DNA of 20,500 nt, from the IMG/VR virus record IMGVR_UViG_3300015185_000049; one strand, 5' to 3'. Source of the DNA: a virus. Taxonomy: Duplodnaviria; Heunggongvirae; Uroviricota; Caudoviricetes. The notes under the pieces were generated by a model. That model was not told the origin of the DNA. It did no database searches and worked only from the letters and a program-made list of their open reading frames with translations. Positions 1 to 20,409 of the stretch are shown here, one piece after another; position 1 is the stretch's first letter, and each line of letters opens with the position of its first letter. Position numbers and translations under genes: made by a program.

Positions 1-645
<645 letters not shown>

Positions 646-5055: not shown

Positions 5056-5400
5056 GATGGTGTTAACTCCGGTCATCACTGGCACTACCATTGCTGGTTC
5101 AGAGTTAAAAAAACTATTATTTTTTTCATAATGTTACCGTAATATGTGAGTATCCATCGACTAGACACTAAGCAAAAAAGCTCCCGAAGGAGCCTTCATT
5201 TTCACTTTCTTAAATCTAACGACAGATGGCTAACATTTAAGTATTGTGAAATATTATCAAATGTAATCATCATTGATTTACAAAAGATACATTTTGCCCC
5301 GAAAGGATTTCTGTCAGAAACATCAAAAGATGATGTTCTATACTGAGAACCATGGCAACACGGGCATCTAAAGTGAATATGGTTTGTAATATTTTCTACC

Positions 5401-5613
5401 TCAAAGTGCCACTACATGAACAGCTGCAGGGCCTTTAGGTCCGTTCTCAATACCAAATTCGACTTCCTGATTCTCAGTTAACGTTTTGAAATCGTTGCTC
5501 TGAATAGCTGAGAAATGCACAAACACATCTTTGCTACCATCTTTCGGCGTGATGAAACCAAAACCTTTTTCAGGGTTAAACCATTTCACTAAACCAGTCA
5601 TTTTGTTAGACAT
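5401..5613 (-). CDS. cspI: Cold shock protein, CspA family (CspI-like)
   Basis: Complete cold-shock domain with RNP1-like motif KGFGFI and RNP2-like VFVHF ([38 protein letters not shown]...), about 70 aa, preceded by a long AT-rich leader as is typical of csp genes. Confidence 0.9.
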
Positions 5614-5976
5614 CATTATTACCTTTTGAAGAAGTTAGCCCTTGGGCAGAATGGTCCGAAAAAAAATATCAGAGAGAAAAACCAACAAGGAAATCTCAAG
5701 AGGTACAAATAATAAAATTATAACAATGACTGCTTCAGATAATTTTGTAACAAACCAGAACACCATTAACGCATGATTAACCAACCATAGCAAGGATTAC
5801 TTTTGTAAAGAAAAACACACGAATGAAACAATAGCTTTATTTATTAATAAAACGTGTCATTCTGTCTAATGACCTTTTATCTTACCCTTAAGATTTCAAG
5901 GATTTTGACTCATGGAAGAGTCCTTTTTATTTAAATTTCACATTCAGCGCTAAAAATAATCCGATTTAATATTAAT

Positions 5977-7000
<1,024 letters not shown>

Positions 7001-7004
<4 letters not shown>

Positions 7005-7312
7005 AGATATTTATGATGAGGACGCTCGTGCTTATTGGCAGGATTTTCAATCTTAAAGGAGTACTGATGCTGCAGATAAGACTCAACTTTTTCTGACAAT
7101 TTTTCTGCTACTTCCAGGAAGACTTGCCGGACGCTCATTCTGGCTGCTGCCTCATAAAACTCCAGCGCAGCTCCTTCAACACGGTCCATGGCGACATCCA
7201 GGCCAAAAATTTCACCGTCAAAGCGTTCTTTGTCCTGTAAGGCTACAGTTACCGTAACTTTATTCTCAAAATTACGGACTCCTTTCACAACCAGTTCATA
7301 GTCTTGAGTCAT
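7001..7312 (-). CDS. YdfR-like protein of unknown function, between holin and endolysin
   Basis: 103-aa ORF with tight overlaps on both sides (4 bp with the endolysin). Same size and position as ydfR in K-12 Qin (recalled). Confidence 0.55.
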
Positions 7313-7316
7313 TGGA

Positions 7317-7532
7317 TTACTCTCCTCTCGCAGCCTTACGCCTGTCTTCTTTAATCTTGAAATAAAGATTTGTCAGATACGTCAGCATGCCAAATACCAG
7401 ACTACCCAATACACCTATTGCCGCCCACTGTGAGGGCGTGACTTTATCGAGCAACTGTAAAAACCAGTAGCCAGCACTGCCTGCAGAGGTGCTGTAGGCG
7501 ATGCCCGTTGTTAACTTATCCATGGATTTCAT
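7317..7532 (-). CDS. Holin, class II (phage 21 S-like pinholin) with dual-start motif
   Basis: Sequence [71 protein letters not shown] has two transmembrane segments, a charged C-terminus and the Met1/Met4 dual-start arrangement of S21-type holins. The ORF track extends it upstream to 7616, but that extension is unlikely to be translated. Confidence 0.85.
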
Positions 7533-7722
7533 AGCCTCACCTCCGCAGATAACGGATGGTGTACACGGTTTGGTTCGAAGAAGGAAAGAAGTTACATTAG
7601 CGTAAGGCCCGAACATCTATTCAAAAAGAAAAACGCCAGCAATTATTCTGGCGTAGCTAAAAATATCGTATAATCTTACACTTCAAAAAATAACTTTATA
7701 AAATGCCATCACATCATATCTT

Positions 7723-8445
7723 CTAAGAAAATCTTGATAAATATTGGTGCGGAGGCACACCAAAATATCCTCTAAAAACACTTACAAAATATGATGCATT
7801 GTCATACCCGCATATTCCCGCCACCTTGCCGACAGTATGGTTACTGTAGATCAATAATCTTTGCGCCATCATCATTCGTTCTTCAAGAATTAATTTACTA
7901 AACGATAATCCTTCGTCTTTTAATTTTCTTTTTAACAAACTCTCGCTCATATATAATCTTGAAGATATATCACAAAGTCTCCATGACGCAGAGATATCCG
8001 AGTGAATAATAGCCTTAACTTTACAACCTAAGCTATTAAGACTTCCGAACAAAAAACTTTGCACTATTTTCTCTGAAGATAAGACAGCAAGACATGCAAG
8101 TGATATTTGATTTCTAACTACATCCACGGTTTTGCTATCACAATTCAAGCATGCAACCAAGTTCTTTAACAATGAAAAATCTTCACATTCTACTATCAAG
8201 TATGACGGATAAAACCTTCTTACAGAAAAAGGTGAGAGTGTGTAGTTTTTAAAGAAATCATTAACTGTTTTCTCCTCAACATCTACGATCATTAGATGAT
8301 CTGTATTTGACGAAAAAAGATCTTTTAAATTGTATTCAATGAGGACAGCATTTCCTTTTTTAAACAAAATATCTTCTTTACCAATTCGGACACCAAACGA
8401 GTTCAACACCAAAATGATAGAACATATGTATGGCATATTATCCAC
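7723..8445 (-). CDS. AraC-family transcriptional regulator (cargo gene)
   Basis: 240 aa with a C-terminal AraC-type double HTH (GKVAGICGYDNASYFVSVFRGYFGVPPHQY). The gene is visibly AT-rich and is flanked by long AT-rich non-coding DNA inside the late operon. Confidence 0.8.
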   Translation of the reverse strand: MDNMPYICSIILVLNSFGVRIGKEDILFKKGNAVLIEYNLKDLFSSNTDHLMIVDVEEKTVNDFFKNYTLSPFSVRRFYPSYLIVECEDFSLLKNLVACLNCDSKTVDVVRNQISLACLAVLSSEKIVQSFLFGSLNSLGCKVKAIIHSDISASWRLCDISSRLYMSESLLKRKLKDEGLSFSKLILEERMMMAQRLLIYSNHTVGKVAGICGYDNASYFVSVFRGYFGVPPHQYLSRFS

Positions 8446-8842
8446 CTGATATCATTGGGGTTACACCAGGTAAGTATAGGTGGAAAATCAATATTCGCCA
8501 GTTCAACAATAAGGAAAATCTCATTGCATCACAACTATAAAACCATGTGTTTAACTCACAAAAAACAAATCATTAAACTAATCTGTTATATTATAATAGC
8601 TGCGTGCAATAATAATATTATATGCTCTTAATATTCACTTGAAATATCTTCATATAAAAACAGATTGAATAAAATCTTTTGGGGCTGGTATGTTTACCAA
8701 CATTAAATTGCATCTCAATGTTTTCTTTAGCGTGAACAGGATTTTTATAAAAACTGACACTATGAGCATCATAGCGTAGTTTTTACGATTGTAAATATCC
8801 TGCATACAGGAACTCATCACTTTCAGATGATATCGCATACAG

Positions 8843-9802
8843 TTAATTCACCATCAGTCTTAGAGCCAGTTCTTCCGGATAGGGATCGAAGTAATTCTGT
8901 GTAAGCAAGTAATCATTAGGATACTCACCCAGATAATGCTTCAGCAGAGTCAACGGCGCAAGAAGAGGCAATGTGCCAAAGCGATAGTTAAGTATAACCT
9001 CGCTCAACTCTTTACGCTGGCGTGTGCTTAAGTAATTACTAAAATACCCCTGTATATGCATCAGCACATTCGTGTGATTTTTACGTGATGCTGGTTTTCT
9101 GAGAATCGCCATCAGATTATCACGATACACCTCAAAGTATGATTCAAGGTCCGCCCACTCGTGTATTGCAGCCACAAATGGTCCCATATCTTTATAGCCT
9201 GCCTGGCTATGCGCCAACAACTGAAGCTTATAACGACTATGAAAAGCTAATAACTCTCTTCTTGATAATTTCTCCTTGTAAAGGTGATTGAGCTCATCCA
9301 AAGCAAAAACTCTTTCAATAAAATTCTCACGAAGCACTGGATCATGTAATCGCCCATCCTCTTCAACCGGTAGCCAGGAAAACTTTTCCATCAAAGTGCT
9401 CGTAAATAGTCCCACTCCATCTTTACGACCTCGATTACCATTTTCATCATAGACACGCACGCGCTCCATGCCACAGCTGGGAGATTTAGCACAAACCACA
9501 AACCCCGATACATCCTTTAATTTGTCCATATAAGAACGACTAAACTCTGTCATTCTCTCTGTCACATCCTCATTCTGGTCGTGGCTGAAACACATCCGTA
9601 TATTTCCTTGCTTCGAGCGCACAAGTCGTAGAGCAGGACGCGGAACTGGCAGCCCTATAGCCATTTCCGGACATACTGGTCTGAATGTTACCCATTCCAC
9701 TAATTTGTCCATTAAAAAGTCATCTCTTTTGTGACCACCATCAAAACGAACAGCAGAACCGCCCAAACAACCGCTGATCCCAATCACAGGTTTTTTTATC
9801 AT
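8843..9802 (-). CDS. YbgA-like protein (DUF523 / TudS-type predicted Fe-S domain fused to DUF1722)
   Basis: 319 aa. The N-terminus GISGCLGG...RPVCPEM...VVCAKSPSCGME carries the conserved cysteine pattern of the DUF523/TudS family, and the C-terminal half is DUF1722-like. Overall architecture matches E. coli YbgA (recalled). Confidence 0.7.
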   Translation of the reverse strand: MIKKPVIGISGCLGGSAVRFDGGHKRDDFLMDKLVEWVTFRPVCPEMAIGLPVPRPALRLVRSKQGNIRMCFSHDQNEDVTERMTEFSRSYMDKLKDVSGFVVCAKSPSCGMERVRVYDENGNRGRKDGVGLFTSTLMEKFSWLPVEEDGRLHDPVLRENFIERVFALDELNHLYKEKLSRRELLAFHSRYKLQLLAHSQAGYKDMGPFVAAIHEWADLESYFEVYRDNLMAILRKPASRKNHTNVLMHIQGYFSNYLSTRQRKELSEVILNYRFGTLPLLAPLTLLKHYLGEYPNDYLLTQNYFDPYPEELALRLMVN

Positions 9803-9994
9803 TTCCTCCCCCTTGACTAATTCATTAACACATAAACTGTGTAGTGCACGGAATAAATTGCCTTTCTGACGTCATCACTGACAATTTTTCTGTTATGGAC
9901 TATTCCTAATATAGTATGAAAGTTCTTTAAGTGATCGGTCGTAATCATCTATCTTTCATACTTACTCTCAACTATCAAAAGTACAGGATTGATT

Positions 9995-10519
9995 ATGAAG
10001 TTATGGCCTGTGTTGACTGGCATTGCACTCTCTTTCACTCTTATAGCATGTAAGGCCCCGACACCACCTAAAGGTGTGCAGCCGATTACAAATTTTGACG
10101 CCAACCGCTACCTCGGAAAATGGTATGAAATAGCTCGCCTCGAGAACCGGTTCGAACGTGGTCTGGAACAGGTCAGCGCTACTTATGGAAAACGGAACGA
10201 CGGAGGGATTCGTGTACTTAACCGTGGATACGATCCAACGAAAAATAAATGGAGCGAGAGCGAAGGTAAAGCATACTTTACTGGAGATACTAAAACTGCA
10301 GCGTTGAAGGTTTCGTTTTTTGGCCCCTTCTATGGTGGCTATAATGTAATCAAACTGGATGATGAGTATAAGTATGCTCTTGTTAGTGGTTCGAACAGAG
10401 AATACCTATGGATTCTGGCAAGGACCCCAACTATTCCAGATAAAGTAAAAGCAGACTATGTGCGAACCGCTCAAAAGTTGGGATTCAATGTCAATGAATT
10501 ATTATGGGTTAAACAATAA
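9995..10519 (+). CDS. blc: Bacterial lipocalin (Blc-like outer-membrane lipoprotein)
   Basis: Lipoprotein signal with lipobox LIAC, then the lipocalin signature FDANRYLGKWYEIARLENRFERG and downstream SFFGPFYGGYNV...YLWILARTP, closely resembling E. coli Blc. The ORF track starts at a TTG at 9989; ATG at 9995 is the likelier start. Confidence 0.85.
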   Translation: MKLWPVLTGIALSFTLIACKAPTPPKGVQPITNFDANRYLGKWYEIARLENRFERGLEQVSATYGKRNDGGIRVLNRGYDPTKNKWSESEGKAYFTGDTKTAALKVSFFGPFYGGYNVIKLDDEYKYALVSGSNREYLWILARTPTIPDKVKADYVRTAQKLGFNVNELLWVKQ

Positions 10520-10546
10520 AATCCCTACCCGAAATGATACTTATTA

Positions 10547-10575
10547 GAAAAAAACCAGCCTTTGGGGAGGCTGGC
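10547..10575 (-). terminator. Rho-independent terminator, candidate tR' downstream of Q
   Basis: Inverted repeat CCAGCCT / AGGCTGG (about 10555-10574) with a 6-nt loop, followed on the minus strand by a run of 7-8 T (the plus-strand A-run at about 10547-10554). Confidence 0.55.
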
Positions 10576-10624
10576 TAAATCAGGAAACAAGCTGTTATAT
10601 GATAATAACTACGTTGCGATTCCA

Positions 10625-10665
10625 ACATTTAAAATGTTAGACTAATGACAATCAGACAGCAACTT
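10625..10665 (-). promoter_or_regulatory. Candidate late promoter PR' with qut region
   Basis: On the minus strand, TTGCTG (-35, plus 10657-10662), a 17-nt spacer and TAACAT (-10, plus 10634-10639), lying between the Q stop and the terminator at 10547-10575. This is the layout expected for a Q-dependent late promoter with a short leader transcript. Confidence 0.35.
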
Positions 10666-10674
10666 TTCCTTTAA

Positions 10675-11052
10675 TTATTTCGAACAATCAGCATCCATCT
10701 CCAATCGGAGATCCAATACCATCAGCATGCCCTCCACTACGCCCTCAGCTTTCTGGAGCATCCTGCCAACCCAACAATCAGATCGCCCATGCTTACGTGC
10801 AAGCGCCATAAAAGTCATGCCGCCGACATAATAGTCCACCAATAAACCATGTAAATCGCTGTTGTTTTTTCTCAGGCGAGCCATACATTCACAAATGATC
10901 ATCGCGTCATCGTCACAGCATTGCGGACGAGATCTTACTTTTGAAGGAATTAATCCCTTAAAACCAGCGGCAATGGACGACCAGGTCACATCTTCATGAT
11001 TATTAGCCGCCCATGCCCCCCAACGCTCAAGAACCATCTGAATATCACGCAT
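10675..11052 (-). CDS. Antitermination protein Q (phage 82 / QuuD-type)
   Basis: [76 protein letters not shown]... closely matches my recollection of the QuuD/QuuQ family, including the Cys-rich segment. The gene is immediately upstream of the promoter/terminator module. Confidence 0.85.
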
Positions 11053-11069
11053 CAACTTACTCCACATAA

Positions 11070-12158
11070 TTAGGCCAGCACACCAATTGCCAGCGCGCGA
11101 TCGATAAATCGAAAAATCAGCTCCAGTTGGGAGCCATACTTCTCTTCAAATGCCACGGTATCCGTATGCAACTCGTCGTGATGCTTTCTGCACAAAGGCA
11201 ACACAAAGAGATCATGTGCTTTGGTTCCCATTCCGCCCTGCCCGTGACCAATCAGATGATGCGGATCGTCGGCTGGCATCCCGCAGCAAGCACACGGCTG
11301 TGTCTTAACCCAGCGTGTGTATTTCTCCTTAACCCAACGGTGACGTTTAGGCAGCTTCATGAAAGATTCCGGAGACTCTGGATCAACGGTGATGCTTACC
11401 ACCGTCTTTTCCTGTGGTGGTTTTTGTTGCTGGTGGGCGTAAGGCAACGGTGCAAGATTTTTTGTGCGTTGTTTCAATATGCTGGTGGCGGCCTGCTCTC
11501 CCGGTACGATGTCGCTCTCGCGGTACACCGAGCAGATTTTTTCCGCTGGTAATCCCAGCGAACGACGTAATACCGCTTCCGGTAGCGCGTCCGCCACCTG
11601 ATTGCGGAGCGCCCACCAGGATAATTCAGCCAGAGATAATTCACGCTCCTGCGTACCGCTTATTGCGTGACCGATGACGTCAATCATCCATGCTGACAGG
11701 TTTTGATGAGCAAGTTGCTCGAGTGATTCGGATGTCTGGTCACGCAGTTGGTTGTCGCAGTGCCAGCACAACACCATTGCGCCGGTACCATAACGGTGAA
11801 TGACGGTTTCGCTGTGATGATAATCGCCGTGCGGCCACTGGCAGGATTTAATATGGCGCAACAGCCAGTCAGACAATGCACCAGCACCACCAGCAGCACG
11901 AATCACCCGTGCGTTACTGAAAAACGGCAGCAATGTTTTGTCTTCCACCAGCGGCTGGCGAACGGCAGGAACGACCCCGGACGGCAGATTACGCATGCTT
12001 TTCGGTTCCGGCTCCACCAGTACCCGGGTATTGTGGAATACCGGCATGGATTCACGGCCTAGTTTAAGGACCACCAGCCCAAGCTCTGGCACCAGAACAG
12101 GTCTAAGTAATACCCGCACGTTACCTCCAGATCCGTTGCTGGAAAGTGCGGGACGCAC
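11070..12158 (-). CDS. DUF968 (YdfU-like) protein with C-terminal HNH-like Cys/His motif
   Basis: 362-aa ORF directly upstream of Q, the position of ydfU in Qin. The C-terminus has CACCG...[32 protein letters not shown], reminiscent of a His-Me finger / HNH zinc motif. The start is uncertain; an internal Met near 12047 would remove the overlap with the upstream ORF. Confidence 0.7.
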
Positions 12159-12505: not shown

Positions 12506-13651
12506 TTATTTTTGTTTTATGGTAAATGAAATAACATTGTCAGAATGAATCATATCTGATTCTTTAAATCGTGTAATTGCAGATAACTCATTTAAGGGAA
12601 GAGCAAAGATATCAGTTAACTCAGTTACCTTTATGATTGAATGCTTATCAAGAAGTAAAAGTAACTTATTAAGTAACTCAGGCTCTTCTTTTGGGATTGC
12701 ATCATCTAACGGCTCCCTACGATGGAATGGCGCTAATTGCTTAAATATATAGCTTTTCTGATTATCGCTGATTAACTTAAGGCTATGACTCCTCATGGCA
12801 ATACTACCGATAGATGTAATCCAACGTAGTTTTAATCGTTCTAACGCTGATAAATTTGGACTATAAAATTCACGCCCGAAAGTGGTGGCTGGCATTAAAA
12901 AGCTGGAGGCAAAATAATCGGCCTGCAACTCCACCAGGTCGAATAATTCTTTATCATTCAGGTAGTCATCCTCCACTGCCCTATGCATAATTAAATGGCC
13001 AAGTTCATGAGCAAGACTAAATCGCATGCGAACAGCCGTCTTCGAGCTATCTAACATAATTAAAGGCCGCCCATTATGCCAGAACGAAAAGGCATCAACT
13101 TTCTCACCAGAAGGTAAATGAGAAACCACGATTCCTTTATTTTCAACAAGTCTAGTTAAATTGAGTATTGGACCATCACCTAACCCCCAAAAACGCCTTA
13201 ATTGGGTGGACATATCCTCAATATCAGATAGAGACAGAACCTCAAAATCAATAATATCGAATTCAGGCAGAACCACATCTGGTAATTGAGCATATTTTAG
13301 ACATTCATCCAATATTAATGCCGCCCAACGCCCACGTGTTTTCCCTGTAACTCGAGCCTTTTTGGTCGCAGTTGAACGACTTCTAAAATGAATCGCCCCC
13401 TCCAGAGATGGAGAAGCACTGGAGGCTAAGAAAAATCGTTCTGGAAATCCTAACACCTTGGCTATTGCAGAAAGTGTATCAGCAGAGGGAGACTTCAACC
13501 CCTTCTCAAATGACGAAATAGCTTGTCTTGAAATATTGAGCACTCTGGCAAGTTCAGCCATCGTCAACCCTTTTGCCTCTCTTGCCTCCTCAAGGCGACG
13601 AGGATTAAACGATTTATCAGTAAATGGTGTTTGTGCGATATTCATGCTCAT
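12506..13651 (-). CDS. Fusion protein: N-terminal XRE-type HTH plus ImmA/IrrE-family zinc metallopeptidase (HEXXH), with a roughly 130-aa C-terminal extension
   Basis: 381 aa. The N-terminus LTMAELARVLNISRQAISSFEKG is a classic XRE HTH; the central SLAHELGHLIMH is an HExxH zinc-peptidase motif in an ImmA/IrrE (COG2856)-like context. Start overlaps the upstream gene's stop by 4 bp (ATGA). AT-rich. Confidence 0.8.
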   Translation of the reverse strand: MSMNIAQTPFTDKSFNPRRLEEAREAKGLTMAELARVLNISRQAISSFEKGLKSPSADTLSAIAKVLGFPERFFLASSASPSLEGAIHFRSRSTATKKARVTGKTRGRWAALILDECLKYAQLPDVVLPEFDIIDFEVLSLSDIEDMSTQLRRFWGLGDGPILNLTRLVENKGIVVSHLPSGEKVDAFSFWHNGRPLIMLDSSKTAVRMRFSLAHELGHLIMHRAVEDDYLNDKELFDLVELQADYFASSFLMPATTFGREFYSPNLSALERLKLRWITSIGSIAMRSHSLKLISDNQKSYIFKQLAPFHRREPLDDAIPKEEPELLNKLLLLLDKHSIIKVTELTDIFALPLNELSAITRFKESDMIHSDNVISFTIKQK

Positions 13652-14262
13652 GATTGCTGTGATTTAATTATTTGTTCGGTAAGAATCTTGATTTTATCTT
13701 CAATCTCAGAATCCACATTTTCTGCTTCAACTTCTACCATCGTCATAATTGGTAAAGACTCAGTATAAAGAATCCCGTAATTATCCGAAGAAGGAACAGT
13801 TAAATTCAGTTTGGACAAGTGCTGATTACTGCCATCATGTAACATATAAACATGTCCACCAGACGCTCTCCCATCCAGGGAGTCGGCATTTTCATCCCCA
13901 AAATTCAATTCATAATTTTGATTAGCGTAAACAGCTCTATACAATGCCTGCTTAGGAAGTGGCGCATTACCCGATAAATGATGTGCCGTCATTTTCCAGT
14001 TGTTCGAGTGAATCGCAATGTGTTTACAATTTTTAGCAGCATTGCTACCGACTTCAAAATCCAGCCCCACACGCTTAGCCGCATTCTCAAGCAATGCATC
14101 GGCATAAAACCAGCGCAAATATGACTGTGCTTGAGCCCAAAAAGAACCAAACTCTTTTGCCTTCATATGCGAATGAAGATAAGCCTGTGCTAACGCGATC
14201 GAAAGCTCTTTGCGGCACTCCTTGTCATATGCTTCTAACAACTGTTGAGATAAATTCTGCAT
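13648..14262 (-). CDS. Protein of unknown function, first gene of the cassette (candidate toxin or effector partner)
   Basis: 204-aa ORF with an SD-like AAGGA upstream and translational coupling to the HTH-peptidase gene. No motif recognised; acidic C-terminal tail. Confidence 0.65.
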   Translation of the reverse strand: MQNLSQQLLEAYDKECRKELSIALAQAYLHSHMKAKEFGSFWAQAQSYLRWFYADALLENAAKRVGLDFEVGSNAAKNCKHIAIHSNNWKMTAHHLSGNAPLPKQALYRAVYANQNYELNFGDENADSLDGRASGGHVYMLHDGSNQHLSKLNLTVPSSDNYGILYTESLPIMTMVEVEAENVDSEIEDKIKILTEQIIKSQQS

Positions 14263-14428: not shown

Positions 14429-14584
14429 TTACTCCTCAGGTTCGTAAGCTGTGAAGACAGCGACCTCCGTCTGGCCGGTTCGGATTCGTACCTCGCAGAG
14501 GTCTTTCCTCGTTACCAGTGCCGTCACTATGACGGTTAAACAGATGACGATCAGGGCGATTAACATCGCCTTTTGCTGCTTCAT
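14429..14584 (-). CDS. hokD: Hok-family type I toxin (HokD/RelF-like)
   Basis: MKQQKAMLIALIVICLTVIVTALVTRKDLCEVRIRTGQTEVAVFTAYEPEE, 51 aa, has the Hok transmembrane and periplasmic pattern and matches HokD as I recall it. Confidence 0.9.
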   Translation of the reverse strand: MKQQKAMLIALIVICLTVIVTALVTRKDLCEVRIRTGQTEVAVFTAYEPEE

Positions 14585-14641
14585 AGCCTGCTTCTCCTTG
14601 CCTTCCGGCACGTAAGAGGCTAACCTACATGTGTCTAGCAT
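14429..14641 (-). CDS. mok: mok (modulator of killing) reading frame overlapping hok
   Basis: In-frame 19-codon upstream extension of hok (MLDTCRLASYVPEGKEKQA...), as in hok/sok loci where mok translation is coupled to hok. Confidence 0.55.
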   Translation of the reverse strand: MLDTCRLASYVPEGKEKQAMKQQKAMLIALIVICLTVIVTALVTRKDLCEVRIRTGQTEVAVFTAYEPEE

Positions 14642-14700
14642 GAAATTGGCCTCAGATTAATGTTAAGCGTCTTGCAGGACGCGTAATGTTAACTGGGGCT
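14598..14700 (+). ncRNA. sok: Candidate Sok-like antisense RNA with promoter
   Basis: Plus-strand TTGCCT (14598-14603), 17-nt spacer, TAACCT (14621-14626), antisense to the mok start region. Boundaries are not determined and no experimental support is available. Confidence 0.3.
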
Positions 14701-14795
14701 TTTCTCTATCTGCCGTTGGTGTTCATGCCTGAGGCAGATAGCCTCAAGCACCCGCAGCAATTCTACTTAACTCACGTCACCTCGCCAATATAAAA

Positions 14796-20351: not shown

Positions 20352-20409
20352 TTTCTGGTGACGTTTAGCGGTATCAGTTTTACTCCGTGACTGCTCTGCC
20401 GCCGTTTTT
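20352..20409 (+). ncRNA. dicF: DicF small RNA (cell-division inhibitor sRNA) with 3' terminator hairpin
   Basis: TTTCTGGTGACGTTTAGCGGTATCAGTTTTACTCCGTGACTGCTCTGCCGCCGTTTTT is near-identical to my recollection of K-12 DicF, ending in a GC-rich stem and U-run. Located downstream of the ydfA-like operon as in Qin. Confidence 0.75.

What the first reader, a model, noticed from the sequence alone, without database searches (positions are those of the whole stretch)
7620..10540. Roughly 3 kb cargo island between the late terminator and the holin: three host-like genes in two orientations
Seen in sequence: between the Q-associated terminator (about 10547-10575) and the holin (7532) lie an AraC-family regulator (minus), a YbgA/TudS-like gene (minus) and a Blc lipocalin (plus, divergent from the YbgA-like gene), separated by long AT-rich non-coding stretches (8446-8842, 9803-9994). 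Established knowledge: the Q-to-S interval is a classic moron site in lambdoid phages (for example stx genes), and in K-12 Qin it holds cspB/cspF. Inference: Q-antiterminated late transcription must cross the island, sense to the AraC and YbgA-like genes and antisense to blc, so these genes may be differently coupled to prophage induction.
Basis: partly seen in the sequence, partly recalled or inferred. Interest (0 to 1): 0.6.

Follow-up and report, generated by a model that had tools for sequence, protein, structure and literature searches.

The report
Known three-gene prophage cargo island
Between the late-gene switch (Q) and the lysis genes of this defective E. coli prophage sits a real but already catalogued three-gene cargo island: a lipocalin, a tRNA 4-thiouridine eraser (RudS) and an AraC-type regulator, carried by about one in five complete E. 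coli genomes.

Summary
On the minus strand the order is Q (10675-11052), a strong terminator (10576-10546), blc (9995-10519, plus strand), a TudS-DUF1722 gene (8843-9802), an AraC-type regulator (7723-8436), a second terminator (7654-7633) and the P21-type holin (7317-7532).

It is dispensable cargo. The same Q/holin backbone carries a porin in phage 4A7, and K-12 Qin carries cspB/cspF at this site.

The island is not new. It is present at 80% coverage or more in 954 of 5426 complete E. coli genomes and in 12 phage records. Mathieu 2020 lists blc as a lambda moron. The "YbgA-like" gene is 91.5% identical to RudS_vir of phage 1H12, which Jamontas 2024 showed lowers tRNA 4-thiouridine.

What I add:
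- The divergent blc/rudS pair matches a conserved chromosomal locus of Enterobacter, Leclercia and Citrobacter, but lacks that locus's MerR regulator.
- The AraC gene belongs to a narrow prophage family related to AppY and YdeO, and varies independently of blc/rudS.
- All three genes are under purifying selection.

That Q-driven late transcription crosses the island is a sound but untested inference. The late promoter was not mapped. Interest is low to moderate.

The parts
10675..11052 (-). Late antiterminator Q (125 aa; PF06530, the family that includes DLP12 QuuD). It is only distantly similar to the solved Q21 structure.
   Evidence: Pfam E 3.4e-50. PHROG 79. PDB 6P18 Q21 E 4.8e-10. PGAP annotation in the 100%-identical strain CH4796.
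10577..10674 (-). Leader between the Q stop codon and the terminator. The late promoter and Q-utilisation site are presumed to be here but were not mapped.
   Evidence: Only weak sigma-70 consensus matches. The region is about 90% conserved with 1H12 but strongly diverged from the porin-carrying phage 4A7.
10546..10576 (-). Intrinsic terminator (9-bp stem with 5 G-C pairs, 6-nt loop, T-run). It is the candidate late terminator that Q must override. It lies 27-57 nt past the blc stop codon on the other strand.
   Evidence: Terminator scan. Sequence. Conserved in 1H12. RNA fold z = -4.4.
9995..10519 (+). blc paralog: an outer-membrane lipoprotein of the lipocalin family, 174 aa, with a signal peptide ending in the lipobox LIAC. 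It is antisense to the late operon.
   Evidence: Lipocalin_2 E 2.7e-43. NCBIfam Blc 312 bits against a 267 cut-off. E 5e-68 to E. coli Blc structure 3MBT. Sequence. dN/dS 0.07 against 1H12.
9803..9994 (.). 192-bp divergent intergenic region between blc and rudS (GC 0.34). The blc-proximal half is recognisably homologous to the chromosomal blc-merR spacer of Enterobacter and Leclercia.
   Evidence: Alignment A2. Composition.
8843..9802 (-). rudS: a TudS (DUF523) plus DUF1722 fusion, 319 aa, predicted to be a [4Fe-4S] tRNA 4-thiouridine desulfidase. It is sense to the late operon.
   Evidence: PF04463 and PF08349. Cys12, Cys44, Cys110 and the CPE and SPSCG motifs. 91.5% aa identity to 1H12 gp66, which is RudS_vir. 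Activity of RudS_vir is reported in PMC11417400. dN/dS 0.14.
8437..8842 (.). 406-bp AT-rich spacer (GC 0.31). It holds a conserved promoter-like site (TTTACA, 16 nt, TATGAT) at 8795-8768 on the minus strand and a roughly 95-nt indel relative to 1H12. It is the transition between the well-conserved rudS-blc block and the fast-diverging AraC block.
   Evidence: Promoter scan. Three-allele alignment A3. blastn break at 8531-8628.
7723..8436 (-). AraC/XylS-family regulator, 237 aa, GC 0.335, of an E. coli prophage-restricted family (PHROG 1450). It is sense to the late operon.
   Evidence: HTH_18 and HTH_AraC. Best NCBIfam match is YdeO, 112 bits against a 348 cut-off. 30% identity to AppY, 29% to YdeO, 31% to EnvY. 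48% to an O157:H7 prophage regulator. Only 24 clusters found in 5.8 billion proteins; every source name shown is E. coli. dN/dS 0.21.
7624..7654 (-). Intrinsic terminator (7-bp stem with 5 G-C pairs, 8-nt loop, T-run) after the AraC gene and 90 nt before the holin ATG. It is part of the island.
   Evidence: Terminator scan. Conserved in all three island alleles and absent from the porin and K-12 Qin variants.
7317..7532 (-). P21-type holin (71 aa, beginning MKSM). It is the first gene of the lysis cassette and the downstream anchor of the island.
   Evidence: PF04971 E 6e-34. Homology with 4A7 and K-12 Qin resumes at 7552-7561.

Best explanation
The segment is a composite moron (cargo) island in the Q-to-holin interval of a Qin-like defective lambdoid prophage of E. 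coli. It has two modules.

**Module 1: blc and rudS.** This is a divergent gene pair resembling a chromosomal locus of the Enterobacter/Leclercia/Citrobacter group. There the arrangement is blc on one strand and merR, a transthyretin-like gene and rudS on the other. The phage copy lacks the MerR regulator.
- rudS encodes a [4Fe-4S] desulfidase that converts 4-thiouridine at position 8 of tRNA back to uridine. That lowers the cell's UVA-sensitive tRNA cross-linking and growth delay.
- blc encodes an outer-membrane lipocalin lipoprotein.

**Module 2: the AraC-type regulator.** It is a low-GC gene of a prophage-restricted family related to AppY and YdeO, with its own conserved promoter-like site and terminator. 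By analogy it most likely plugs into host stress regulons such as acid resistance.

**Expression logic (inferred).**
- In the lysogen, the terminator next to Q and the terminator before the holin insulate the island, and each gene runs from its own promoter.
- After induction, Q-modified RNA polymerase reads through both terminators.
- That read-through transcribes rudS, the AraC gene and then the lysis genes in sense, and blc in antisense.

**Shown versus inferred.**
- Shown: gene identities, the cargo status of the island, its prevalence, its synteny and purifying selection.
- Inferred: the transcription pattern and the physiological roles.
For: **Cargo status.**
- The same backbone carries a porin.
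- K-12 Qin carries cspB/cspF at this site.
- Island GC is 0.38.

**Prevalence and fixed architecture.**
- 954 of 5426 complete E. coli genomes hold at least 80% of the Q-to-holin segment.
- rudS plus blc is in 1048 genomes and the AraC gene in 996.
- 72 of 80 IMG/VR loci show Q, blc, rudS, AraC and holin in the same order and orientation. Most exceptions are contig ends or IS events.

**RudS.**
- Domains, the three cysteine ligands and the catalytic motifs are present.
- It is 91.5% identical to RudS_vir.
- RudS_vir lowers tRNA 4-thiouridine when overexpressed in E. coli (PMC11417400).
- Overexpressed RudS_KT, a Pseudomonas putida homolog, reduces UVA growth delay.

**Chromosomal origin of the pair.**
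- 41 of 62 non-E. coli loci have blc divergently upstream of the rudS operon.
- C. sedlakii and Citrobacter sp. JGM124 have blc and rudS directly divergent.
- Phage Blc is 76-81% identical to most of these neighbours, against roughly two-thirds identity to E. coli's own Blc in the 3MBT alignment.
- The blc-proximal spacer is alignable.

**AraC family.**
- A 38%-identical paralog sits directly after a lambda-type Q in another prophage.
- AppY, PatE and PsrB are prophage AraC regulators that activate acid-resistance genes (PMC10057817, PMC10877973).

**Independent modules.** The rudS-blc block is 95-99% identical in 994 records. The AraC gene splits into about 330 records at 99% or more and 679 at 80-90%.

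**Selection.** dN/dS is 0.07-0.21.

**Terminators.**
Against: - No transcript data were found for any lysogen.
- The late promoter next to Q could not be located with confidence. Only weak consensus matches exist, and the region is diverged from the porin-carrying relative.
- This prophage is defective: one search shows an IS in the portal region and no tail or head genes. Q-driven read-through may therefore never occur in this genome.
- rudS is disrupted by IS3 in E. coli B strains and the AraC gene is deleted by IS1 in one viral contig, so the genes are dispensable.
- RudS_vir was the least active of the tested RudS enzymes relative to its protein level.
- The highest-scoring chromosomal RudS relatives (Citrobacter braakii, 75%) do not have blc next door. 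The donor lineage is therefore not pinned down.
- No target of the AraC regulator is known.
Confidence: 0.8

Rival explanations
1. The three genes form one regulatory unit. The AraC-type protein has replaced the lost MerR regulator and is the dedicated controller of the blc/rudS divergent promoter, so the island is a self-contained stress module rather than two independent modules.
For: - The MerR regulator found in the chromosomal locus is missing from the phage island.
- The AraC gene accompanies rudS-blc in 72 of 80 viral loci, and the genome counts are nearly equal at 996 and 1048.
- Both spacers are AT-rich, as AraC-family operators often are.
Against: - The AraC block diverges and recombines independently of rudS-blc.
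- Paralogs at 38-48% identity occur in prophages with no rudS or blc nearby.
- Characterised relatives (AppY, PatE, PsrB) act on host genes, not on neighbouring genes.
- No repeated operator motif was seen in the spacers.
Confidence: 0.2
2. The island is neutral hitchhiking DNA in a decaying prophage and does nothing for phage or host.
For: - The prophage is defective.
- IS elements disrupt rudS in E. coli B strains and delete the AraC gene elsewhere.
- The low GC content suggests silencing by H-NS (inference).
Against: - dN/dS is 0.07-0.21 across alleles with synonymous divergence of 0.2-0.6.
- The genes are intact in most of about 1000 genomes and in plaque-forming phages.
- An ortholog is enzymatically active.
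Confidence: 0.1
3. The island serves superinfection exclusion or anti-phage defence. Blc would alter the outer membrane or mask a receptor, and RudS would change the tRNA pool to the disadvantage of incoming phages.
For: - Alternative cargo at this site is a surface protein, a porin.
- Mathieu 2020 notes that lambda morons are mostly membrane proteins.
- A Rosmer defence pair sits 2 kb away in the same prophage.
Against: - None of the three proteins matches any PADLOC model.
- No published exclusion phenotype for Blc or RudS was found in the literature searches.
Confidence: 0.08
4. The genes are conserved core phage functions needed for late gene expression or lysis.
For: They always lie inside the late operon, between Q and the holin.
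Against: - Plaque-forming relatives with the same type of Q and holin carry a porin instead.
- K-12 Qin carries cold-shock genes at this site.
- Close homologs are chromosomal housekeeping or stress genes.
Confidence: 0.02

Closest known systems
Q-to-S island of Escherichia phage 1H12 (NC_049947, gp65-gp67) and the related infant-gut lambda-like phages of Mathieu et al. 2020
   Same: - The gene order and orientation are identical: Q, blc, rudS, AraC-type gene, holin.
- Nucleotide identity is 90% over Q-blc-rudS and 80% over the AraC-holin part.
- gp66 is the experimentally tested RudS_vir.
- blc is listed as a moron present in more than half of those lambda phages.
   Different: - Here the island sits in a defective Qin-type prophage with ydfU upstream of Q, rather than a lambda-type nin region.
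- The AraC allele is only 76-77% identical in protein.
- There is a roughly 95-nt indel in the rudS-AraC spacer.
Other cargo in lambdoid Q-S intervals: nmpC/ompD porin in DLP12 and phage 4A7, cspB/cspF in K-12 Qin, stx genes in Stx phages
   Same: - The position is the same, between Q with its terminator and the holin.
- Composition is foreign.
- The gene next to Q (porin or blc) is antisense to the late operon.
   Different: - The gene content differs.
- This island has three genes in two modules, and it carries a terminator immediately before the holin that the porin and K-12 variants lack.
RudS tRNA 4-thiouridine desulfidases (Jamontas et al. 2024), such as Salmonella STM1389/ORF319
   Same: - The TudS plus DUF1722 architecture, the 319-aa length and Cys12/44/110 match what the paper lists for RudS_ST and RudS_vir.
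   Different: - Chromosomal rudS genes sit beside MerR-family regulators or in other stress-related operons, for example after a cyclopropane-synthase-like gene.
- The phage copy has no MerR and lies inside a Q-controlled late operon.
Prophage-borne AraC/XylS regulators AppY (DLP12), PatE and PsrA/PsrB (O157:H7), plus host YdeO
   Same: - They are small regulators of about 240-250 aa with a C-terminal double helix-turn-helix.
- Similarity runs over the full length: 30% to AppY and 29% to YdeO.
- It is 48% identical to an O157:H7 prophage regulator whose map position fits patE; this identification was not verified.
- They are carried by prophages.
   Different: - It scores below every NCBIfam equivalog cut-off, so it is not an ortholog of any named regulator.
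- It lies in the Q-S interval, whereas appY lies near the tail-fibre end of DLP12.
- Its targets are unknown.
E. coli chromosomal Blc (PDB 3MBT, 1QWD)
   Same: - Same lipocalin fold family and lipoprotein signal; it passes the NCBIfam Blc cut-off.
   Different: - Identity is only about two-thirds, read from the 3MBT alignment.
- It is closer (76-81%) to the rudS-linked blc paralog of Enterobacter and Leclercia.

Membership tests
Lambdoid moron / cargo island in the Q-S interval | Lies between the late antiterminator gene with its terminator and the lysis cassette | tested here: met
   Q is at 10675-11052, the terminator at 10576-10546 and the holin at 7317-7532.
Lambdoid moron / cargo island in the Q-S interval | Dispensable: related phages with the same backbone have other genes or none at this site | tested here: met
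   A porin is at this site in 4A7 and many other phages, and cspB/cspF in K-12 Qin. Homology breaks at about 7552-7561 and about 10693.
Lambdoid moron / cargo island in the Q-S interval | Composition differs from the flanking phage genes | tested here: met
   Island GC is 0.38 (AraC gene 0.335), against 0.47 for both Q and the holin.
Lambdoid moron / cargo island in the Q-S interval | Own promoter and terminator, allowing expression from the repressed prophage | tested here: inconclusive
   A conserved terminator lies at 7654-7633 and a conserved promoter-like site at 8795-8768. The total number of promoter-like sites is no higher than in shuffled sequence (12 found, 12.2 expected). No transcript data exist.
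RudS (TudS-DUF1722 tRNA 4-thiouridine desulfidase) | N-terminal TudS/DUF523 domain followed by a C-terminal DUF1722 domain | tested here: met
   PF04463 covers residues 7-149 and PF08349 covers residues 192-309.
RudS (TudS-DUF1722 tRNA 4-thiouridine desulfidase) | Three conserved cysteines that bind the [4Fe-4S] cluster, plus the catalytic Glu and Ser motifs | tested here: met
   Cys12, Cys44 and Cys110 are present, as are the CPE and SPSCG motifs, which align to TudS structure 6Z92. The same positions are listed for RudS_vir.
RudS (TudS-DUF1722 tRNA 4-thiouridine desulfidase) | Removes 4-thiouridine from tRNA | not testable with these tools
   Shown for the 91.5%-identical RudS_vir by overexpression in E. 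coli (PMC11417400). Not shown for this allele.
Bacterial lipocalin Blc | Lipocalin_2 domain scoring above the curated Blc cut-off | tested here: met
   NCBIfam NF007786 scores 312 bits against a cut-off of 267. PDB 3MBT E 5e-68.
Bacterial lipocalin Blc | Lipoprotein signal peptide with a lipobox cysteine | tested here: met
   The N-terminus reads MKLWPVLTGIALSFTLIAC, with Cys19 and Lys at +2. This was read from the sequence; no predictor was run.
AraC/XylS regulators, AppY/YdeO/PatE group | C-terminal double helix-turn-helix DNA-binding domain | tested here: met
   HTH_18 covers residues 161-237 of the 240-aa GTG-start ORF, E 3e-16. GadX DNA-binding domain 3MKL E 4e-21.
AraC/XylS regulators, AppY/YdeO/PatE group | Orthology to a named member (YdeO, GadX, AppY) | tested here: not met
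   The best match, YdeO, scores 112 bits against a cut-off of 348, and GadX 90 against 500. Identity to AppY, YdeO and EnvY is 29-31%. It is a related but distinct family (PHROG 1450).
AraC/XylS regulators, AppY/YdeO/PatE group | Activates acid-resistance (gadE, hdeA) genes | not testable with these tools
   Known for AppY, PatE and PsrB. No data exist for this protein.
Anti-phage defence systems (PADLOC) | Match to a known defence protein model | tested here: not met
   None of the three island proteins has a hit at E 0.01 or better.

The most novel reading that the evidence does not exclude
The phage has placed a light/UV-stress gene pair under its late switch for its own benefit. When UV damage induces the prophage, Q-driven transcription floods the cell with RudS. 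RudS strips 4-thiouridine from tRNA, which prevents UVA-triggered tRNA cross-linking, uncharged-tRNA accumulation and the stringent response. Translation of late phage proteins would then keep going in sunlight-damaged cells. This would be a phage-encoded tRNA-modification eraser acting as an auxiliary gene for burst size, and it would also mean that about a fifth of E. coli strains differ in UVA physiology because of a prophage.
Probability: 0.2. Interest if true: 0.6.

Novelty: already known. Interest (0 to 1): 0.3.

Why it matters
Mostly this finding is housekeeping: it can be filed as a correctly recognised, common moron island. Three points are still worth a specialist's attention.

1. 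**E. coli is not uniformly RudS-free.** The RudS paper states that E. coli lacks RudS and TudS homologs. In fact about 19% of complete E. coli genomes carry an intact-length rudS-blc block on prophages. The B strain REL606 carries an IS3-disrupted copy, and BL21(DE3), the host used in that paper's assays, shows only a fragment. Strain choice could therefore affect studies of tRNA 4-thiouridine and UVA responses.

2. **blc and rudS are linked across genera.** They are neighbours in many enterobacterial genera and were carried into phages in the same arrangement. This hints at a shared, still unknown, stress role for the lipocalin and the tRNA eraser.

3. **Another prophage AraC regulator.** The island adds one more uncharacterised prophage AraC regulator, present in about 1000 sequenced strains, to the AppY/PatE/PsrB group that rewires host acid-stress networks.

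Tried and rejected
- **RNA elements.** Rfam at gathering thresholds and ARAGORN found nothing inside the island, so there is no tRNA or known sRNA as there is in Stx phages.
- **Defence function.** PADLOC gave no hit for the three proteins.
- **Small ORF.** The 62-codon ORF at 8650-8838, just downstream of rudS, looked like a possible small gene. Its start and reading frame are not kept in 1H12, by my reading of the alignment, so I treat it as non-coding.
- **Late promoter.** I tried to locate it by consensus scan and by aligning the Q-downstream region with the porin-carrying phage 4A7. The two regions are too diverged and only weak hexamer pairs exist. The promoter position is left open.
- **Apparent cassette exchange.** One viral contig (L080) seemed to have swapped out the AraC module. 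It is an IS1 insertion with an adjacent deletion.
- **PatE identity.** I could not verify that the 48%-identical O157:H7 regulator is PatE. The primary papers (PMC3416394, PMC4288888) and the EDL933 record NC_002655.2 are not held. Only the map position fits.
- **Sensitivity limit.** The word-indexed protein search for the AraC protein did not reach AppY or YdeO. Those identities come from direct BLASTP against K-12 sequences.
- **Literature.** Searches for the island as a unit, and for phage links to 4-thiouridine, found nothing beyond the two papers cited.


Full report
**1. Where the window comes from**

The 3.8-kb segment 7300-11100 is 100% identical to the chromosome of E. coli strain CH4796.

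The annotation of that record shows a Qin-type defective lambdoid prophage. On the minus strand of the window the order is:
- dicB and DicF;
- a cI/cro-like pair;
- hokD/sok;
- two genes that turned out to be a Rosmer defence pair;
- ydfU;
- Q;
- the island;
- the holin essD, ydfR, the lysozyme rrrQ and rzpQ;
- cspI;
- terminase genes and a portal gene cut by an IS3-family element.

Rfam confirms sok, DicF and the cspA-type 5' leader of cspI. It finds nothing inside the island. No tRNA gene is present.

**2.

All three genes score far above chance.
- The AraC-type regulator is at 7723-8436 on the minus strand (HTH_18 E 3e-16).
- The TudS-DUF1722 gene is at 8843-9802 on the minus strand (both domains about E 1e-40).
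- blc is at 9995-10519 on the plus strand (Lipocalin_2 E 3e-43). It passes the curated NCBIfam Blc cut-off at 312 bits against 267.

The flanking genes are also as described.
- Q is at 10675-11052 (PF06530, E 3e-50).
- The P21-type holin is at 7317-7532 (PF04971, E 6e-34).

- It is conserved in phage 1H12.
- The 101-nt leader containing it folds much better than shuffled sequence (z = -4.4).

The two AT-rich spacers are real, with GC 0.31 and 0.34. The only sizeable ORF in the longer spacer is not conserved in 1H12, by my reading of the alignment.

**3. It is cargo, and it is common**

Phage 4A7 and many other coliphages share the Q and holin sequences but carry a porin gene between them.
- With 4A7, homology to the window covers only 7316-7552 and 10693-11094.
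- K-12 Qin shares the holin side up to 7561. At this site it carries ynfU, cspB, cspF and ynfS, next to a different type of Q.
- DLP12 has nmpC there.

The island's GC is 0.38, with the AraC gene at 0.335. Both Q and the holin are at 0.47.

The island is widespread.
- The whole Q-to-holin segment is present at 80% coverage or more in 954 of 5426 complete E. coli genomes.
- The rudS-blc block is in 1048 genomes and the AraC gene in 996.
- Twelve deposited phage genomes carry it.
- Of 80 IMG/VR contigs retrieved with RudS, 72 show the identical order and orientation of Q, blc, rudS, AraC and holin. Most of the others are contig ends or IS events.

Among one-genome-per-species representatives, no species other than E. 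coli yielded the phage-type allele. The only two contigs above 90% identity are labelled as an unrelated MAG and are probably contamination.

**4. What the genes are**

*RudS*
- The "YbgA-like" gene is a RudS. It has the TudS and DUF1722 domains, Cys12, Cys44 and Cys110, and the CPE and SPSCG motifs. These align to the TudS crystal structure 6Z92.
- It is 91.5% identical to gp66 of phage 1H12.
- Jamontas et al. 2024 (PMC11417400) cloned that gene as "RudS_vir" and showed it lowers tRNA 4-thiouridine when overexpressed in E. coli. The same paper shows that a Pseudomonas putida homolog, RudS_KT, lessens UVA-induced growth delay.

*Blc*
- Blc is a lipoprotein lipocalin with the lipobox LIAC.
- Mathieu et al. 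2020 (PMC6969025) already list blc as a moron present in more than half of their infant-gut lambda-like phages.

*The AraC-type protein*
- It belongs to a very narrow family. Only 24 clusters were found in 5.8 billion proteins; every source name shown is E. coli. It matches PHROG 1450.
- It aligns over its full length to AppY (30%), YdeO (29%) and EnvY (31%).
- It falls far below every NCBIfam equivalog cut-off.
- It is 48% identical to an O157:H7 prophage regulator at 0.33 Mb, whose position fits patE. I could not verify that identification.
- A 38%-identical paralog sits directly after a lambda-type Q in another E. coli prophage.
- AppY, PatE and PsrB are prophage AraC regulators that activate acid-resistance genes (PMC10057817, PMC10877973).

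**5. New detail: two modules with different histories**

I searched one genome per species with RudS and then looked for the other island proteins around each hit.
- In 41 of 62 non-E. coli loci, a blc paralog lies divergently upstream of the rudS operon. Most are 76-81% identical to the phage Blc; two Citrobacter-related loci are 68-72%.
- By contrast, identity to E. coli's own Blc is only about two-thirds, read from the 3MBT alignment.
- The usual form, in Enterobacter and Leclercia, is blc on one strand, with an MlrA-like MerR regulator, a transthyretin-like gene and rudS on the other.
- Citrobacter sedlakii and Citrobacter sp. JGM124 have blc and rudS directly divergent. The spacer is about 180 bp in C. 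sedlakii and about 230 bp in JGM124, against 192 bp in the window.
- The blc-proximal half of the phage spacer still aligns with the chromosomal blc-merR spacer.

The phage arrangement therefore matches a pre-existing chromosomal gene pair, but without its MerR regulator.

The AraC block behaves separately.
- Against 1H12, nucleotide identity is 90% from Q through rudS but 80% from the spacer at about 8530 to the holin, with an indel between the two parts.
- Across E. coli genomes the rudS-blc block is 95-99% identical in 994 records. The AraC gene splits into about 330 records at 99% or more and 679 at 80-90%.

All three genes are under purifying selection between the window and 1H12 alleles. 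dN/dS is 0.07 for blc, 0.14 for rudS and 0.21 for the AraC gene.

**6. How it most likely works**

*Shown*
- The island is bracketed by two intrinsic terminators on the late-operon strand.
- The terminator before the holin is conserved in all three island alleles and absent from the porin and K-12 variants.
- A promoter-like site (TTTACA, 16 nt, TATGAT) at 8795-8768 is one of the few conserved blocks in the long spacer.

*Inferred*
- In a lysogen, the short transcript from the Q-proximal late promoter stops at 10546. blc, rudS and the AraC gene run from their own promoters, and the AraC transcript stops at about 7633, so the holin stays silent.
- After induction, Q-modified polymerase ignores both terminators. 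It transcribes rudS, the AraC gene and the lysis cassette in sense, and collides with blc transcription.

*Caveats*
- The late promoter itself could not be mapped.
- The total number of promoter-like matches is no more than chance.
- No transcript data were found.
- This particular prophage is defective, so induction-coupled expression may apply only to the intact phage relatives.

**7. Rivals**

- **One module under AraC control.** A single stress module, with the AraC protein standing in for the lost MerR, is possible. The independent divergence of the AraC block and the existence of stand-alone paralogs count against it.
- **Neutral hitchhiking.** The dN/dS values and the intactness of the genes in plaque-forming phages argue against it. 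IS disruptions do show that the genes are dispensable.
- **Defence or exclusion.** This role has no support from PADLOC.
- **Core phage function.** The alternative-cargo genomes contradict it.

**8. Verdict**

The finding is real and correctly interpreted, but it describes a known kind of element. This very island is already in published phage genomes, with one gene characterised and another named as a moron.

The modest additions are the shared chromosomal origin of blc and rudS, the independent AraC module, the prevalence figures, and a correction to the literature. The statement that "E. coli lacks RudS" does not hold for about a fifth of sequenced strains. E. coli B carries an IS3-disrupted copy in REL606, and BL21(DE3) shows only a fragment.

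Noticed in passing
window 12506-14262 (minus strand): A Rosmer-type anti-phage defence pair lies between ydfU and hokD, roughly where K-12 Qin has rem. The 381-aa protein has an HTH domain plus a Peptidase_M78/IrrE domain and matches PADLOC RmrA at E 5.5e-102. The adjacent 204-aa protein matches RmrT only weakly (E 7.5e-10).
   Followed up: partly
L002 (E. coli B REL606) 5425-6587; corresponds to window 9656-9658: In E. coli B REL606 an IS3 element splits rudS at about codon 49, leaving two pseudogene fragments. The BL21(DE3) record shows only a rudS fragment next to blc. BL21(DE3) is the host used for the published RudS assays, so it carries a disrupted prophage copy of the gene under study.
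   Followed up: partly
window 8843-10519, against the literature: Jamontas et al. 2024 state that E. coli lacks RudS and TudS homologs. However, 1048 of 5426 complete E. coli genomes hold at least 80% of the rudS-blc block on prophages.
   Followed up: yes
window 10546-10674 (minus strand): The segment between the Q stop codon and the terminator is strongly structured (z = -4.4). If the late promoter lies here, it would give a short constitutive RNA in lysogens, comparable to lambda 6S RNA. No Rfam family matches it.
   Followed up: partly
L006 6001-6714: A 38%-identical paralog of the AraC-type regulator lies immediately downstream of a lambda-type Q (PF03589) in another E. coli prophage. A DUF1737/SASA esterase-like gene and a holin follow it. 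This regulator family therefore recurs in Q-S intervals with different Q types.
   Followed up: partly
window 14429-14753 (minus strand): A hokD toxin ORF with a full-length sok antisense RNA (Rfam RF01794, 115.8 bits).
   Followed up: no
window 5355-5771 (minus strand): A cspA-type thermoregulator leader (RF01766, 110 bits) precedes the cspI cold-shock gene, just downstream of the lysis cassette.
   Followed up: no
window 20353-20404 (+) and 1-73 (-): A DicF antisense sRNA (RF00039, 64.8 bits) lies near the right end of the window. A 5' fragment of the isrC family (RF01387), cut by the window edge, lies at the left end.
   Followed up: no
window 6471-7532 (minus strand): The holin begins MKSM, a possible dual start as in the phage 21 pinholin. 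The lysozyme has a hydrophobic N-terminus ([21 protein letters not shown]) suggestive of a signal-anchor-release endolysin. A DUF1327 gene (ydfR) is wedged between them.
   Followed up: no
L013 2234-5960 (Citrobacter braakii, second rudS copy): C. braakii has two rudS genes. One lies directly after a run of same-strand ORFs: a cyclopropane-synthase-like gene, DUF2878 and DUF3833. This is a different chromosomal context from the blc-merR one.
   Followed up: partly
L080 6063-6832: In one IMG/VR prophage contig an IS1 element, with an adjacent deletion, has removed the AraC module from about 100 nt past rudS to about 60 nt before the holin. blc and rudS remain intact.
   Followed up: yes
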